49,677 nt of DNA from Promethearchaeota archaeon (GTDB taxonomy: Archaea; Asgardarchaeota; Lokiarchaeia; Sigyniarchaeales; SOKP01), in assembly GCA_048939015.1 (NCBI GenBank), contig JBHLPW010000042.1, positions 1 through 49,677 of the forward strand. Reading direction: 5' to 3'. Under the pieces are notes generated by a model. The model saw only the letters and a program-made list of their open reading frames with translations, searched no databases and was not told where the DNA came from. Below, in pieces: positions 45,329 through 49,677 of the stretch. Position 1 is the first letter of the stretch; each line of letters opens with the position of its first letter. A program made the translations under genes and the position numbers.

Positions 45329-46192
45329 ATGAGTGAGAGAGTATTTGGTGAGATTGAAGGTGTTAAAGAAGGTGATGAATTTAGAGACCGAAGAGAACTT
45401 CATGAGAGAGGTGTTCATAAACCTACTCAAGCAGGAATTTCAGGGAGTGAAAAAGAAGGGGCTGATTCAATTGTAATTTCTGGGGGGTATGAAGATGATG
45501 AGGATTATGGTGATATTATAATATACACTGGTCACGGCGGAAGAGATGAAAATACCGAGAAACAAAATAAAGATCAAGAACTCGAAAGAGGTAATTTAGC
45601 GCTTGTAAAAACATTTCAATACGAATTACCTGTGAGAGTTATTCGAGCGAAAGAAGATGGATCTGGATATGTATATTCAGGATTATACGAAGTTATAGAT
45701 TATTGGTCCCAAATAGGAAGATCTGGTTATAAAATATGGAGATATAAACTACAAAAATTACCGAGTAATATTACTTATTTAGATAAGAAACAGGATGAAA
45801 AAGCTAAGGATTTAGAAACTTTACCTAACAGAATTGAAGTATTGATAAAAAAGATAATTAGAGATTCATCAATAGTAAGAGAGATAAAGGAATTGTATAA
45901 ATTCAAATGTCAAATCTGTGGTACAATTCTGAAACTTAAAGAAGAAGGTATTTATTATGCAGAGGGTGTACACATAAAACCATTAGGAAATCCTCATAAT
46001 GGTCCTGATAAGATTAAAAATATGTTATGTTTATGTCCTAATCATCATATCTTATTTGATAATGGTGCAATATCTATAAATGATGATTTTAGCTTAAATG
46101 GATTAGAGGGGATATTATATGTGAGTCCTCGACATAATATAGATAAACAATACACAAAATATCATCGGGAGAATATTGCAGGAAAAAATTAG
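45329..46192 (+). CDS. SRA/YDG-HNH modification-dependent (type IV) restriction endonuclease
   Basis: SRA: QAGISG, SIVISGGYEDDEDYGD.IIYTG.GG, GNLAL, PVRVIR, YSGLY. HNH: CQICG..HIKPL..NMLCLCPNHH. Confidence 0.92.
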   Translation: MSERVFGEIEGVKEGDEFRDRRELHERGVHKPTQAGISGSEKEGADSIVISGGYEDDEDYGDIIIYTGHGGRDENTEKQNKDQELERGNLALVKTFQYELPVRVIRAKEDGSGYVYSGLYEVIDYWSQIGRSGYKIWRYKLQKLPSNITYLDKKQDEKAKDLETLPNRIEVLIKKIIRDSSIVREIKELYKFKCQICGTILKLKEEGIYYAEGVHIKPLGNPHNGPDKIKNMLCLCPNHHILFDNGAISINDDFSLNGLEGILYVSPRHNIDKQYTKYHRENIAGKN

Positions 46193-46309: not shown

Positions 46310-47299
46310 TTAACCTTTGCAACCTGTCCAAAACTTTCGGACTAATTTATTTTCAATAGCAAATTTAAGATCTTCAGCTATTACTTTTCCCTTCATCTTT
46401 ACTTTTCCAAAAAATCCTTCCTTATCTAAAATTTGAAGAAGTCTCTGATTTCTATTCTCCAGTTTTTCTATTTCTATTTTATTTGGTATCATATTTGATT
46501 TGGTTGAATTACATTTCTTATGAACATAAACGAGATTCCAAAGGTTATCTTCAAAGAGATAAGACCACGGTATGACATGGTCAAGAGATAGTTCTTTATC
46601 TAATATTTCCTTATCGCAAATAAAACAACTATGGTCTATATTCTCTTTATCAAGCCATGTATGGAATTTCTTTAAGGGAGATCTAACATAATCTTTATCA
46701 TCAAGAAATTTTACTTTCTTATTGATTCTTGGGCTATAATCAAATGATTCGACGATCTGTGCCCAGCGAGAATTAATCAGTGGATAAAGAATTTCACAAT
46801 TTTCTTTTAATATTTTAAGATATCTTTTTTTAATTAACAAATAGTCACTATTTTTCTGATAATCATACATCCATTTCAGATTTTCTCCTCTTAATTCGAG
46901 AAATCTATAACTAACATCCTTCTTTAAAATTGGAACAATTTCACTAATTACTCTGTAAATATCGTTTTCAATTGCTAAATGTACTTTCTTTTTCTCATAG
47001 CGAATTGGCTGATTAGATTTTGTTGATTCAATATATGTATTTATTAATTCTTCAGTGATATTAACAATCGTTGGTTTAACAGGTCCCTGTTTAAGATTAA
47101 AATAGAAACTATGATTCCAATAATAATTTAAAAATCTTTCAGCAATTTTTTTTAACTCAATTTTGATTAGGTCATCATCCTCATCCAAATCATTTACGTC
47201 GGAAGAGATATCAACAAGTGCTCTTGCCCAGGCCATTTTATAAGTATTTGTTATATTTGATCTTAAAATTAACTTATAAAAGCTCTTAAAGAAATTCAT
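46310..47299 (-). CDS. HNH endonuclease with large N-terminal domain
   Basis: CFIC..SLDHVIPWS..NLWNLV..CNSTKSN; N-terminal TNTYKMAWARAL. Confidence 0.88.
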   Translation of the reverse strand: MNFFKSFYKLILRSNITNTYKMAWARALVDISSDVNDLDEDDDLIKIELKKIAERFLNYYWNHSFYFNLKQGPVKPTIVNITEELINTYIESTKSNQPIRYEKKKVHLAIENDIYRVISEIVPILKKDVSYRFLELRGENLKWMYDYQKNSDYLLIKKRYLKILKENCEILYPLINSRWAQIVESFDYSPRINKKVKFLDDKDYVRSPLKKFHTWLDKENIDHSCFICDKEILDKELSLDHVIPWSYLFEDNLWNLVYVHKKCNSTKSNMIPNKIEIEKLENRNQRLLQILDKEGFFGKVKMKGKVIAEDLKFAIENKLVRKFWTGCKG

Positions 47300-47332
47300 A
47301 AATGCTTCTTACTTTTATCCACTTTAATGAAT

Positions 47333-49246
47333 TTATTCAACTAAATATTTTTTTAAAAAATACAAAAATCGATAATTAGTTTGCATTACTTCTTTTTTTC
47401 TATTTTCGATGTATTCAAGTTCGATTGGTTGTTTTCCAGATTCTAATCTAACTTTATATATGTATGTTCCATCTTCAAGTTGTACTCTCAATTCTTTCTT
47501 AGTTTGTGCAATAATCAATAAAAGACAAGTTTTAAGGATTCCACTATTATCCTCAATAGATACAGATTTGATGCGAAAAAAGTCTGCCTTTGGTCTAATC
47601 CATCTTAAAATTTTTTCAGTACAATCATTGATTTTTGTTTCTTCATCTTCTACTCCAATAATTTTTCTCGGTATTTCATTTGTAATTCCAATTATAATAA
47701 CACCACCATTTGCATTTGCAAACGCAACAACATTTTCACAAAATTCAATTTGTTTTTTCTTTTTAAGGCTAAAATCAGCCTTCCACATATCTAATGTCTG
47801 TTTAAAATCCCAAAACCTAGATTCTACTTGATCATCTTCTTTCGCTGTATTAATAAATTTTTTCCAGAATGTATTATCTTCAATTATAAGTAGTTCTTCT
47901 TCTCGTTCTGTAAAACTAAATTTTAAATTTTTTATAAGATCGGGAAACAAATCTTTGGGAACATAATATACATCTGTTTTATCATCTACTTTTTCAATTG
48001 AAAAAACAGCACACTGATTTTCATCATCATATAGAAATTTATTTGAATGGGTTGTAATAAACACTTGATTGTCTCTGGAAAATTCTAAGATCATATCTCT
48101 AATTTTTGCTTGAAGTCCAGGATATAAAAACAATTCAGGTTCTTCAATTAATAAGATTTTATCCCTATTTAATAACTTCATACTAGCAATAAAAAGAGCA
48201 ATGTTTAATATTCCTGAACCCATATTTTCCAATGTAAATTTCATTGTAACCCCTTTTTCTTTCAAAATTAGAACAGTCATATCGTTATTGTCTACAATTT
48301 GAGTAATTTCATCAGCGTTAGTAAAAAAATGCTTCAGTTGTTTATTAAAGTCATCTAACCACGGTTTTTTATCAGTTACAAGCAATTTATGTATATATTT
48401 TACGAAAGTATAGCCTGTGAAATCAAATTCAGTCTCTAAAACATTTGAGGTCGAAGCATCCTTTCCGAATCTCCGCTTGTCGGGAATAATGACTATTGAT
48501 TTAAAGAATGATCTTAAGTAATCTTTAATTATTATAGCTAAAACTGGATTTAGCTTTTGTTCTAATTCAATATAATCCCTTTTGAAGAATTCTTGTAAGG
48601 AATAATTTACAACAATCCCTTCTTCTTTAAAATTGGTATGCGTAAAAAAATTTTTAAAATTGTCTAACATCCCCGCTAAATTCGTTAATGTTTGAACAAA
48701 ACCTTTATAATTATTTTTTTCATCAATTTCTAATTTAAGTAGTGGTTGAGAAACATTCCACTTTCCACTGATTATTTCGATCTTGCTTACAATAATACGT
48801 TTATTAAAGAAACTAATCTTAATTTTAAGAAAATTAATAAATTCTTGATTAACCAACCATTTTAACGCAAATTCCTTATTATTCCAATTATCTACATGAA
48901 TATTTGGTTTAAGTTCTTTTCCTTCTGGAGTTTCCATATTGATTTTTACTTTTTTAATATAATTACCATCATAGAGAATTCGAAAAATTTTCTCTCGAAA
49001 TTCGTCGTAGAGCTCAAATGTTATTGAAATTTCAGTTACATCTTGTTCTTCATCATTAAAAATAATTGAATCTGTGAAAAGTCCTTCATGTGCGTTTAAA
49101 ACCAAAGCCTTGAATATTTTGAATAAATTTGATTTTCCAGCATTATTCTTTCCTATAAGAACATTATAATTCTTAATATCAGGGAAATTGGCTTTTTTAT
49201 AACTTAATAAATTCCTAATCTGTATCTCTTTTATTTTAAATTTCAA
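47333..49246 (-). CDS. ABC-type (AAA_15/AAA_21, OLD/PtuA-like) ATPase fused to a C-terminal Schlafen/AlbA_2 domain
   Basis: Walker A GKNNAGKS, signature MGSG, Walker B LLIEEPE, H-loop ITTHS; then ESRFWDFK..VVAFANANGGVIIIGI. Likely TTG start at 49246 behind GGTGA (the ORF is open to 49273). Confidence 0.88.
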   Translation of the reverse strand: MKFKIKEIQIRNLLSYKKANFPDIKNYNVLIGKNNAGKSNLFKIFKALVLNAHEGLFTDSIIFNDEEQDVTEISITFELYDEFREKIFRILYDGNYIKKVKINMETPEGKELKPNIHVDNWNNKEFALKWLVNQEFINFLKIKISFFNKRIIVSKIEIISGKWNVSQPLLKLEIDEKNNYKGFVQTLTNLAGMLDNFKNFFTHTNFKEEGIVVNYSLQEFFKRDYIELEQKLNPVLAIIIKDYLRSFFKSIVIIPDKRRFGKDASTSNVLETEFDFTGYTFVKYIHKLLVTDKKPWLDDFNKQLKHFFTNADEITQIVDNNDMTVLILKEKGVTMKFTLENMGSGILNIALFIASMKLLNRDKILLIEEPELFLYPGLQAKIRDMILEFSRDNQVFITTHSNKFLYDDENQCAVFSIEKVDDKTDVYYVPKDLFPDLIKNLKFSFTEREEELLIIEDNTFWKKFINTAKEDDQVESRFWDFKQTLDMWKADFSLKKKKQIEFCENVVAFANANGGVIIIGITNEIPRKIIGVEDEETKINDCTEKILRWIRPKADFFRIKSVSIEDNSGILKTCLLLIIAQTKKELRVQLEDGTYIYKVRLESGKQPIELEYIENRKKEVMQTNYRFLYFLKKYLVE

Positions 49247-49677
49247 AGTATCACCATCATCAATGATAAACAAAATGCAATTGACTAATAAAAGAAAAAT
49301 TTTCCTTAAATACTAGATGGGTATTTAGGATTTTGGGCTTCTTTTAAAGATCTATAAAGGAATTGGGTTTTTAAATTTTTAGATTAGAAATATTATTATT
49401 CAGCAATTTTTAAAGAATTTTATGCAATGAAATCAAATTCTAATTTTATAAAAAAATATCAGGCACATAGAATTTCTTGGAATTATACTCTTATATCAAC
49501 AGCTTTAGAATTTACTTTACCCTAAATGGAATTTTATAAGGAATCATTAATATATTGTATTTAATAATTCTTAAAATCCCAGCTTTTCACCTATTAACAA
49601 CAAAGTTATTGAAAAATCTTATAGATTTATAAAAACAAAATTATGATAAATATTGAGAAACTAAAATACTCTTTTCT

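What the first reader, a model, noticed from the sequence alone, without database searches (positions are those of the whole stretch)
46310..49273. Candidate new immune system: ABC-ATPase-Schlafen fusion co-transcribed with an HNH nuclease
Seen: one polypeptide carries a full ABC-ATPase (GKNNAGKS, MGSG, EEPE, TTHS) and, where OLD/GajA proteins carry TOPRIM, a Schlafen/AlbA_2 domain (ESRFWDFK, AFANANGGVIIIG; about 47333-47850). An HNH gene follows 33 bp downstream on the same strand. Known: ABC-ATPase sensors gate effectors in Septu (PtuA+PtuB HNH), PARIS, Gabija and PrrC/RloC (ATPase + anticodon nuclease), and Schlafen domains are tRNA/rRNA endonucleases in animal innate immunity. Inference: an ATPase-gated Schlafen RNase plus a DNase, i.e. 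a Septu/PrrC-like antiviral module in an Asgard archaeon. I do not recognise this architecture as a named system.
Basis: partly seen in the sequence, partly recalled or inferred. Interest (0 to 1): 0.88.

Follow-up and report, generated by a model that had tools for sequence, protein, structure and literature searches.

The report
OLD-type ATPase fused to Schlafen nuclease
An Asgard archaeon encodes one protein that joins an OLD-family ABC ATPase to a Schlafen-type nuclease, probably a self-contained antiviral sensor and effector; the HNH nuclease gene behind it is a separate neighbour, not a conserved partner.

Summary
One minus-strand ORF (47333-49273; the likely start is the TTG at 49246) encodes a complete ABC ATPase and a C-terminal Schlafen/AlbA_2 domain. 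An HNH gene (46310-47299) follows after 33 nt.

The Schlafen domain passes Pfam's threshold, folds as Schlafen, and keeps the E-x4-D-x-K catalytic triad in all 34 aligned homologues.

The two-gene reading is not supported:
- Around fusion homologues, 0 of 12 other neighbourhoods carry an intact HNH homologue. One close relative keeps only a decayed pseudogene beside an intact fusion.
- Among 400 genomes of the phylum, the four others with the full-length fusion lack the HNH gene.
- The HNH protein belongs to a large, independently distributed family found beside complete Septu or AbiL systems, or alone.

My reading is a single-gene module: an OLD-family ATPase chassis whose TOPRIM nuclease has been replaced by a Schlafen nuclease. 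The exchange happened more than once within this clade.

Prokaryotic Schlafen effectors fused to varied sensors were published in 2025-26, including an untested P-loop NTPase-Schlafen class. This is therefore a new variant of a known kind. Function is inferred only.

The parts
47333..49273 (-). ATPase-Schlafen fusion gene. The ORF from TTG 49273 gives 646 aa; the likely true start, TTG 49246, gives 637 aa.
47954..49237 (-). OLD-type ABC ATPase module (aa 13-440). Walker A is at 49130-49153, the signature-like MGSG at 48212-48223, Walker B/EEPE at 48134-48154 and the H-loop TTHS at 48044-48055.
   Evidence: Pfam AAA_15/AAA_21; motif positions; invariant G/K/S, E, H columns in 34 homologues
47825..47953 (-). 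Helical linker (aa 441-483). It travels with the Schlafen domain as one cassette.
   Evidence: Model helices. Other Asgard fusions match from about aa 448-464 onward.
47336..47824 (-). Schlafen/AlbA_2 nuclease domain (aa 484-646). The catalytic E484-x4-D489-x-K491 lies at 47801-47824.
   Evidence: Pfam 3e-14; PDB profile hits to SLFN8/12/11/14/5 and SAMD9; model pLDDT 91 with the top 36 Foldseek hits all Schlafen, SAMD9 or AlbA_2; triad invariant
47300..47332 (-). 33-nt spacer between the two genes
   Evidence: An A/T-rich TATA-like run lies just inside the 3' end of the upstream gene, so a separate promoter is not excluded (seen in the sequence only).
46310..47299 (-). Stand-alone nuclease with a winged-helix N-domain and an HNH domain (329 aa). 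The N-domain is aa 1-205 (46685-47299). The Cas9-type HNH domain is aa 206-329, with CFIC, DH, N and CNSTKSN motifs.
45329..46192 (+). Convergent SAD/SRA + HNH_2 gene, a likely modification-dependent restriction enzyme and a defence-island neighbour
   Evidence: Pfam SAD_SRA 4e-50, HNH_2 2e-12
49247..49390 (-). Conserved upstream leader or promoter region of the fusion gene, with TATA-like boxes and a GGTGAT Shine-Dalgarno-like motif
   Evidence: Alignment with the upstream regions of three 77-81% identical homologues

Best explanation
The large gene encodes a self-contained, single-polypeptide defence protein. Its N-terminal part is an OLD-family ABC ATPase, which serves as the sensor and switch. 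Its C-terminal part is a prokaryotic Schlafen (pSlfn) metal-dependent endonuclease, which serves as the effector.

By analogy with P2 OLD, PARIS, retron-Septu and the characterised bacterial Schlafens, the ATPase keeps the nuclease silent in a closed oligomer. An infection cue, such as an aberrant DNA structure or a viral protein, together with ATP binding or hydrolysis, rearranges the assembly. The Schlafen site (E484, D489, K491) then cuts tRNA. Translation stops and the infected cell arrests.

Shown here:
- the domain identities;
- intact catalytic motifs in both halves;
- conservation of the fusion;
- repeated exchange of TOPRIM and Schlafen on the same ATPase chassis;
- reuse of the same Schlafen cassette with other N-terminal modules;
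- variable neighbourhoods rich in defence genes.

Inferred, not shown: antiviral function, the tRNA substrate, the trigger, and the oligomeric switch.

The downstream HNH gene is a separate DNA endonuclease with a winged-helix N-domain. It belongs to a widespread family that settles in defence islands, and it is not a required partner.
For: Domains and motifs:
- Pfam matches above threshold and invariant Walker A, Walker B, H-loop and E-x4-D-x-K in 34 homologues of 34-81% identity.
- Schlafen fold confirmed.
- The same E-D-K triad is catalytic in CbCash (E17/D22/K24; PMC13462974). The matching E15 and D20 are catalytic in RorSlfn5 (PMC13056530).

Conservation of the fusion:
- About 36 protein clusters share the architecture.
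- The full-length fusion is in 5 of 400 genomes of the phylum, including a 37% identical paralogue in this genome.

Effector exchange:
- The closest non-Schlafen relatives are ~800-aa Asgard proteins with OLD-like TOPRIM or DUF3226 at the same position.
- They interleave with the Schlafen forms on the ATPase tree, which needs at least 3 changes.
- The ATPase of P0035 (Schlafen form) is 60% identical to that of P0048 (TOPRIM form), but at most 37% identical to any other Schlafen form.

Cassette reuse:
- The same Schlafen cassette is fused to transmembrane or unknown soluble N-termini, or stands alone, in 8 other genomes.

Context:
- Neighbours of homologues include PycTM, Mrr_cat-TPR, HEPN (Ymh), a UvrD-like helicase with a TOPRIM fragment, DUF4062 and PNP_UDP-TPR.
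- SRA-HNH lies nearby in the window.

Independence of the HNH gene:
- 0 intact HNH homologues in the 12 other neighbourhoods examined.
- The four other genomes with the full-length fusion have no HNH homologue at E<=1e-10.
- In L081/L082 the HNH gene has an in-frame stop and is truncated, while the fusion gene is intact.

Precedent:
- P2 OLD is an ABC-ATPase-gated tRNase (bioRxiv 10.64898/2026.07.10.737580).
Against: - There is no experimental or expression data. No RNA run was listed.
- The window is a whole contig that ends about 400 nt upstream of the gene, so an upstream partner cannot be excluded here. Homologues show no conserved upstream gene.
- The D of the family's G-I-T-D motif is N532 in this copy (D in 29 of 34). 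This D may correspond to the third acidic residue of mammalian Schlafens, a correspondence I take from memory. The bacterial enzymes are defined by E-D-K only.
- The ATPase tree is a quick search, not the finished careful one.
- The 33-nt spacing recurs in the L081 remnant (30 nt). The pair was therefore adjacent in a recent ancestor and could cooperate locally.
Confidence: 0.7

Rival explanations
1. The ATPase-Schlafen protein and the HNH protein would work together like Septu (PtuA/PtuB), with the ATPase gating an RNase in cis and a DNase in trans, at least in this lineage.
For: - Same strand, 33-nt spacer.
- A close relative keeps a remnant of the same gene at the same place, 30 nt downstream.
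- 16 of 39 HNH family members weakly match PtuB models through the HNH domain.
- HNH homologues lie downstream of ABC-ATPase systems in L085 and L111.
Against: - 0 of 12 other neighbourhoods have an intact HNH homologue.
- The remnant is a pseudogene beside an intact fusion.
- The two genes do not co-occur in any of the four other genomes that carry the full-length fusion.
- The HNH family is far larger than the fusion family and is mostly bacterial.
- In L085 and L111 the adjacent systems are already complete: AbiLi+AbiLii and PtuA+PtuB.
- The window's HNH itself has no PtuB match at E<=0.01, and PtuA scores 24 bits against a cut-off of 500.
Confidence: 0.12
2. The fusion is not an immune protein. 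It would be a DNA- or RNA-binding ATPase for repair, chromatin or regulation, with the AlbA_2 domain serving only as a nucleic-acid-binding module.
For: AlbA_2/Schlafen domains also bind DNA, as in the SAMD9 DNA-binding domain and SLFN5 (hits). About 30% of prokaryotic Schlafen genes are not near known defence genes.
Against: - The catalytic E-D-K triad is invariant.
- The distribution is patchy: 5 of 400 genomes, with paralogues and a copy interrupted by a stop.
- The neighbourhoods are variable and defence-like.
- The domain is interchangeable with a TOPRIM nuclease.
Confidence: 0.08
3. This rival concerns the HNH gene only. It would be a selfish homing-type or mobile endonuclease that inserts next to other genes, rather than a host defence nuclease.
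For: - Very similar proteins (43-48% identity) occur across Clostridia, Erysipelotrichaceae, Bacillales plasmids and Asgard archaea.
- Some copies are solitary among housekeeping genes (L088).
- The gene is quickly lost or decayed in relatives.
Against: - No match in 50,697 phage records.
- The large conserved N-terminal winged-helix domain resembles the DNA-modification readers of ScoMcrA-type enzymes (Z 5.6-6.1).
- It recurs beside Septu, AbiL and SRA-HNH genes.
- No intein or intron context was seen.
Confidence: 0.1

Closest known systems
OLD-family nucleases (P2 OLD, class 1 OLD, GajA, retron-Eco8 effector)
   Same: - ABC ATPase of the AAA_15/AAA_21 type, with the effector fused at the C-terminus.
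- The nearest relatives of the ATPase module are Asgard proteins with an OLD-like TOPRIM at that position.
- P2 OLD is reported to be an ATPase-gated tRNase.
   Different: The TOPRIM nuclease is replaced by a Schlafen/AlbA_2 nuclease. No helicase partner (GajB or UvrD-like) is conserved.
Prokaryotic Schlafen effectors (pSlfn1-55, Taboada et al. 2025/2026; Cash, Nat Commun 2026)
   Same: Schlafen domain with the E-x4-(E/D)-x-K site, fused to a presumed sensor and located in defence islands. The class 'P-loop_NTPase.pSlfn' (pSlfn15, 17 members) has the same order of domains.
   Different: - The tested systems use Ig-like, DUF262 or Csx15 sensors. No ATPase-Schlafen fusion has been tested.
- The Bacillus pSlfn15 example (464 aa) has only a weak, sub-threshold AAA_15 N-terminal match and no pairwise similarity to this protein.
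- That survey used RefSeq complete genomes.
- No paper in the searched library describes this Asgard family.
Septu (PtuA ABC ATPase + PtuB HNH)
   Same: An ABC ATPase gene is followed by an HNH gene. Retron-Septu degrades tRNA-Tyr (abstracts).
   Different: - The PtuA model scores 24 bits against a cut-off of 500.
- The window's HNH has no PtuB match.
- The HNH carries a 205-aa winged-helix domain.
- The pairing is not conserved.
PARIS (AriA + AriB)
   Same: Generic AriA-model match of 79.5 bits over the ATPase. PARIS is an ATPase-gated tRNase.
   Different: There is no AriB/DUF4435 TOPRIM gene. The effector is fused and is of the Schlafen type.
ScoMcrA-type type IV restriction enzymes (SBD + SRA + HNH)
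   Same: This comparison concerns the HNH gene and its neighbour. One gene has a winged-helix N-domain resembling the sulfur-binding domain plus HNH. The other has SRA + HNH.
   Different: - The resemblance to the sulfur-binding domain is only middling (Z 5.6-6.1) and is tied with Cdc6/ORC winged helices.
- The HNH is of the Cas9 type (HNH_4).
- The modules lie in two separate genes.

Membership tests
OLD-family nuclease | N-terminal ABC ATPase with Walker A, signature, Walker B and H-loop (AAA_15/AAA_21 type) | tested here: met
   Pfam AAA_15 5e-22 and AAA_21 5e-22; motifs invariant in 34 homologues; PADLOC Old model 9e-21, partial
OLD-family nuclease | C-terminal TOPRIM nuclease domain | tested here: not met
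   No TOPRIM match. The C-terminus is SLFN_AlbA_2. Sister proteins P0043 and P0049 do carry OLD-like_TOPRIM.
Prokaryotic Schlafen effector (pSlfn) | SLFN_AlbA_2 domain above the Pfam threshold with a Schlafen fold | tested here: met
   54 bits against a cut-off of 25.3; model pLDDT 91 with the top 36 Foldseek hits all Schlafen, SAMD9 or AlbA_2
Prokaryotic Schlafen effector (pSlfn) | Catalytic E-x4-(E/D)-x-K motif | tested here: met
   E484-SRFW-D489-F-K491, invariant in 34 of 34. The motif is as defined.
Prokaryotic Schlafen effector (pSlfn) | Location among defence genes | tested here: met
   SRA-HNH and HNH lie within 2 kb in the window. Homologues lie beside PycTM, Mrr_cat, HEPN, DUF4062 and PNP-TPR genes. 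This was not quantified against a control.
Prokaryotic Schlafen effector (pSlfn) | Virus-triggered tRNA cleavage and protection | not testable with these tools
   Needs a bench assay
Septu (PtuA/PtuB) | ATPase matches the PtuA model at its threshold | tested here: not met
   NF041760 scores 24 bits against a cut-off of 500
Septu (PtuA/PtuB) | HNH partner matches PtuB | tested here: not met
   No PtuB hit at E<=0.1 for the window protein. Some family members match weakly through the HNH domain.
Septu (PtuA/PtuB) | Conserved ATPase-HNH gene pair | tested here: not met
   0 intact in 12 other neighbourhoods; no co-occurrence in the four other genomes that carry the full-length fusion
PARIS | AriB (DUF4435/TOPRIM) partner | tested here: not met
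   No such gene is adjacent
Gabija | GajA TOPRIM domain and GajB helicase | tested here: not met
   GajA models match only the ATPase part. No helicase gene is adjacent.
PrrC/RloC anticodon nucleases | C-terminal anticodon-nuclease domain | tested here: inconclusive
   No such family was listed by Pfam or NCBIfam at E<=0.1. The C-terminus is explained by Schlafen.
ScoMcrA-like type IV restriction enzyme (for the HNH gene) | Sulfur-binding or modification-reader domain | tested here: inconclusive
   VIA-align Z 5.6-6.1 over 118-126 residues to the SBDs of ScoMcrA, SprMcrA and Hga, tied with Cdc6/ORC winged helices at Z 6.9. No sequence match.
ScoMcrA-like type IV restriction enzyme (for the HNH gene) | HNH catalytic core | tested here: met
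   HNH_4 1.7e-11. D240-H241, N255, N264 and the cysteines are invariant or nearly so in 39 homologues.

The most novel reading that the evidence does not exclude
Asgard archaea carry an OLD-type ATPase chassis on which TOPRIM and Schlafen nucleases have been exchanged repeatedly. That would make the two nucleases functionally interchangeable tRNase effectors under one gating mechanism. In this particular lineage the module may additionally have recruited a winged-helix-HNH DNase in trans, giving a dual RNA and DNA response.
Probability: 0.12. Interest if true: 0.6.

Novelty: new variant of a known kind. Interest (0 to 1): 0.42.

Why it matters
The finding ties two current themes together. OLD, PARIS and Septu ATPases gate tRNA-cutting nucleases, and Schlafen nucleases are ancient antiviral tRNases shared with animals.

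A natural series of proteins that differ mainly in carrying TOPRIM or Schlafen on the same ATPase (60% identical chassis in one pair) is a ready-made experiment. It can show how ABC ATPases control unrelated nucleases.

It also adds an untested ATPase sensor class, and the Asgard lineage, to the Schlafen defence repertoire.

It does not add a new two-gene system.

Tried and rejected
- **Two-gene hypothesis.** I searched with tblastn for the HNH gene around fusion homologues and scanned the phylum. Rejected as a conserved system.
- **Named systems.** PADLOC and NCBIfam scans gave only generic ATPase hits.
- **Expression and co-transcription.** No RNA holder was listed.
- **Promoter and terminator scan.** The bacterial-type scan was uninformative for an archaeon: 21 promoter-like sites against 22.7 expected.
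- **Phylogeny.** The careful tree did not finish in two 300-s runs. The quick tree plus pairwise identities were used instead.
- **Krishnan et al. 2020 (ABC ATPase classification).** It is cited by PMC12839542 alongside the statement that Schlafen-linked systems can act as anti-phage modules, but it is not held in the library. I could not check whether it already lists OLD-ABC-Schlafen fusions.
- **N-domain of the HNH protein.** Sequence searches found nothing: PDB profile, Pfam at E<=1. Foldseek against PDB found only the HNH part.
- **Phage records.** No match for the HNH protein.
- **Third acidic residue of mammalian Schlafens.** I could not map it residue by residue with these tools.
Full report
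**Observation**

The window is one whole contig (C14, 49,677 bp) of a 4.86-Mb, 125-contig genome. On the minus strand an ORF runs 49273..47333 (646 aa from a TTG). A second ORF runs 47299..46310 (329 aa) after a 33-nt spacer.

Pfam matches the first protein to AAA_15 (aa 13-413, 5e-22), AAA_21 and SLFN_AlbA_2 (aa 484-608, 3e-14, 54 bits against a cut-off of 25.3). It matches the second protein to HNH_4, HNH_5 and HNH.

Homologues and the database copy begin at MKFKIKE. A GGTGAT precedes the TTG at 49246, so the true start is probably there, giving 637 aa. The contig ends about 400 nt upstream, so the upstream neighbour in this genome is unknown.

**The fusion protein**

A search of 5.8 billion proteins found about 36 clusters with the same AAA_15 + AAA_21 + SLFN_AlbA_2 architecture at 34-81% identity. 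All are metagenomic. Where a source names them, they come from Promethearchaeota MAGs.

In an alignment of 34 of them, several columns are invariant (646-aa numbering):
- the Walker A residues;
- the EEPE Walker B and catalytic glutamate;
- the H-loop histidine;
- the Schlafen motif E484-x4-D489-x-K491.

A profile of the last 206 residues hits only Schlafen-family structures in the PDB by sequence: SLFN8/13, 12, 11, 14, 5 and SAMD9. An AlphaFold model of that region has pLDDT 91 and pTM 0.87. Its 36 best Foldseek matches are all Schlafen, SAMD9 tRNase or bacterial AlbA_2 structures at probability 0.89-1.00, with 33 at E<=0.001.

The E-D-K triad with this exact spacing is the experimentally proven active site of CbCash (E17/D22/K24). 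The matching E15 and D20 are catalytic in RorSlfn5. Both halves of the protein therefore look catalytically competent.

One caveat. The D of the family's G-I-T-D motif is N532 in this copy (D in 29 of 34). This D may correspond to the third acidic residue of mammalian Schlafens. I could not map this residue by residue.

**Relation to OLD**

The nearest proteins that lack Schlafen are ~800-aa Asgard proteins. Their ATPase is 32-41% identical to the window's, and they carry OLD-like TOPRIM or DUF3226 at aa ~440-520.

On a quick maximum-likelihood tree of the ATPase module these TOPRIM forms fall in three places among the Schlafen forms. Starred branches force at least three changes. The careful search did not finish.

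Pairwise identities give the same answer without a tree:
- The ATPase of P0035 (Schlafen form) is 60% identical over 427 aa to that of P0048 (TOPRIM form), but at most 37% identical to any other Schlafen form.
- P0038 (TOPRIM form) is 52% identical to P0011 (Schlafen form).

The Schlafen cassette also travels separately. In the 400 genomes of the phylum, eight further genomes have the same cassette (31-45% identity from about aa 448-464 onward). It is fused to transmembrane N-termini or to unannotated soluble domains, or it stands alone at 209 aa.

**Linkage to the HNH gene**

I examined the surroundings of fusion homologues in 12 independent neighbourhoods besides the window:
- four loci from three Promethearchaeota species genomes (L001, L002, L004, L015);
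- the own-genome paralogue on C43 (L092);
- the three closest relatives at 77-81% identity (L081/L082, L083, L084);
- four mid-distance relatives (L095/L096, L097/L098, L099, L100/L101).

(L003 and L016 were also searched, but have almost no downstream sequence.) These come.

tblastn with the HNH protein finds no intact homologue in any of them.

The only trace is in L081/L082, where the fusion is 80% identical to the window's. There the first 84 codons of the HNH gene survive at 76% identity, 30 nt downstream. They have an in-frame stop at codon 66 and then lose similarity, while the fusion gene is intact.

Among 400 species genomes of the phylum, the full-length fusion occurs in five genomes. 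Full-length homologues of the HNH occur only in this genome.

The fusion's neighbours are otherwise variable and often defence-like: PycTM, Mrr_cat-TPR, HEPN/Ymh, a UvrD-like helicase with a TOPRIM fragment, DUF4062 and PNP_UDP-TPR.

**The HNH protein**

It belongs to a large, tightly conserved family. More than 240 clusters of ~325 aa show 43-65% identity over the full length. Where the sources name an organism, members come from Clostridia, Erysipelotrichaceae, Bacillales plasmids and Asgard archaea. The family is absent from 50,697 phage records.

Its HNH core is of the Cas9 type and has invariant catalytic residues.

The model (pLDDT 88) shows an N-terminal winged-helix domain of about 200 aa. 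Its best structural matches are Cdc6/ORC winged helices (Z 6.9) and the phosphorothioate-reading sulfur-binding domains of ScoMcrA, SprMcrA and Hga (Z 5.6-6.1, 118-126 residues aligned). These are middling scores and not proof.

Family members occur in several contexts:
- alone among housekeeping genes (L088);
- alone in a Helarchaeota contig (L087);
- next to a complete AbiLi/AbiLii pair (L085);
- next to a complete PtuA/PtuB Septu pair on a Priestia plasmid (L111);
- followed by a MazG-like pyrophosphohydrolase (L088, L112, L113).

I read the protein as an independent single-gene DNA endonuclease, possibly modification-dependent, that accumulates in defence islands. Here it lies between the fusion gene and a convergent SRA-HNH gene.

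**What is known**

Prokaryotic Schlafen nucleases were shown to be antiphage effectors fused to diverse sensors (bioRxiv July 2025; Nat Microbiol March 2026). That work defined 55 domain compositions. Supplementary Table 2 of the preprint lists 'P-loop_NTPase.pSlfn' (pSlfn15) with 17 members, and none was tested.

One such Bacillus protein (464 aa) has only a weak AAA_15 N-terminal match and no pairwise similarity to the window protein.

The ESM Atlas holds a 233-member, mostly bacterial cluster with SLFN_AlbA_2 + AAA_21 + ABC_tran.

Cash and SLFN-pAgo papers add further sensor types.

P2 OLD itself is now reported as an ATPase-gated tRNase. PARIS and retron-Septu also degrade tRNA (abstracts).

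I found no paper that describes this Asgard OLD-type ATPase-Schlafen family. I could not read Krishnan et al. 2020, which may list related fusions.

**Verdict**

This is an ATPase-gated Schlafen nuclease, best described as an OLD-family protein with its TOPRIM effector swapped for Schlafen, and also as a new sensor variant of the pSlfn class. It is a single-gene module. The HNH gene is a neighbour, probably adjacent only in this sublineage and already decaying in a close relative.

The mechanism (trigger sensing by the ATPase, release of the Schlafen tRNase, abortive arrest) is inferred from the characterised relatives and has not been tested.

I rate it a new variant of a known kind, of moderate interest. 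The main value is the natural TOPRIM/Schlafen swap series.

Noticed in passing
L003:1021-2940 (= G159:C134): In one Promethearchaeota genome the fusion is interrupted by a single TAA exactly at the domain boundary, and an ATG follows directly. This gives separate ATPase (465 aa) and Schlafen (173 aa) ORFs. It is either a natural split form or a fresh pseudogene.
   Followed up: partly
L103-L110 (eight other genomes of the phylum): The same Schlafen cassette, including its preceding helix and the E-x4-D-x-K motif, is fused to multi-pass membrane N-termini (L104, L106, L107) or to unannotated soluble domains (L103, L105, L109, L110). In L108 it stands alone at 209 aa.
   Followed up: partly
window 49247-49390 (-): About 140 nt upstream of the TTG start are nearly identical in the four closest relatives. 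They look at least as conserved as the coding sequence. The stretch contains TATA-like boxes and GGTGAT. It may be a conserved promoter, leader or regulatory element.
   Followed up: no
L016 (JAAKFN010000059.1): A full-length, 35% identical fusion homologue lies on a 9.8-kb contig binned as 'Candidatus Anoxychlamydiales' (a bacterium). Its GC is 25.8%, close to the 25-26% of two Asgard loci and the window's 29%. This is either mis-binning or gene transfer.
   Followed up: no
L088:7007-7754; L112:6006-6326; L113:6003-6323: Homologues of the HNH protein are followed on the same strand by a MazG-like or PRA-PH nucleoside triphosphate pyrophosphohydrolase in three loci from two contexts. This may be a real partner of that HNH family. 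It is absent in the window.
   Followed up: partly
window 45329-46192 (+): A SAD/SRA + HNH_2 gene converges on the HNH gene, so three nuclease genes lie within 4 kb at the contig end.
   Followed up: partly
G000:C43:13900-15804 (L092): A second fusion gene, 37% identical to the window's, lies in the same genome. It has no HNH gene beside it.
   Followed up: yes
L081:8439-9473 (-): In the close relative where the HNH gene has decayed, a different 344-aa protein with an N-terminal HNH motif is encoded convergently where the rest of the gene would be.
   Followed up: no
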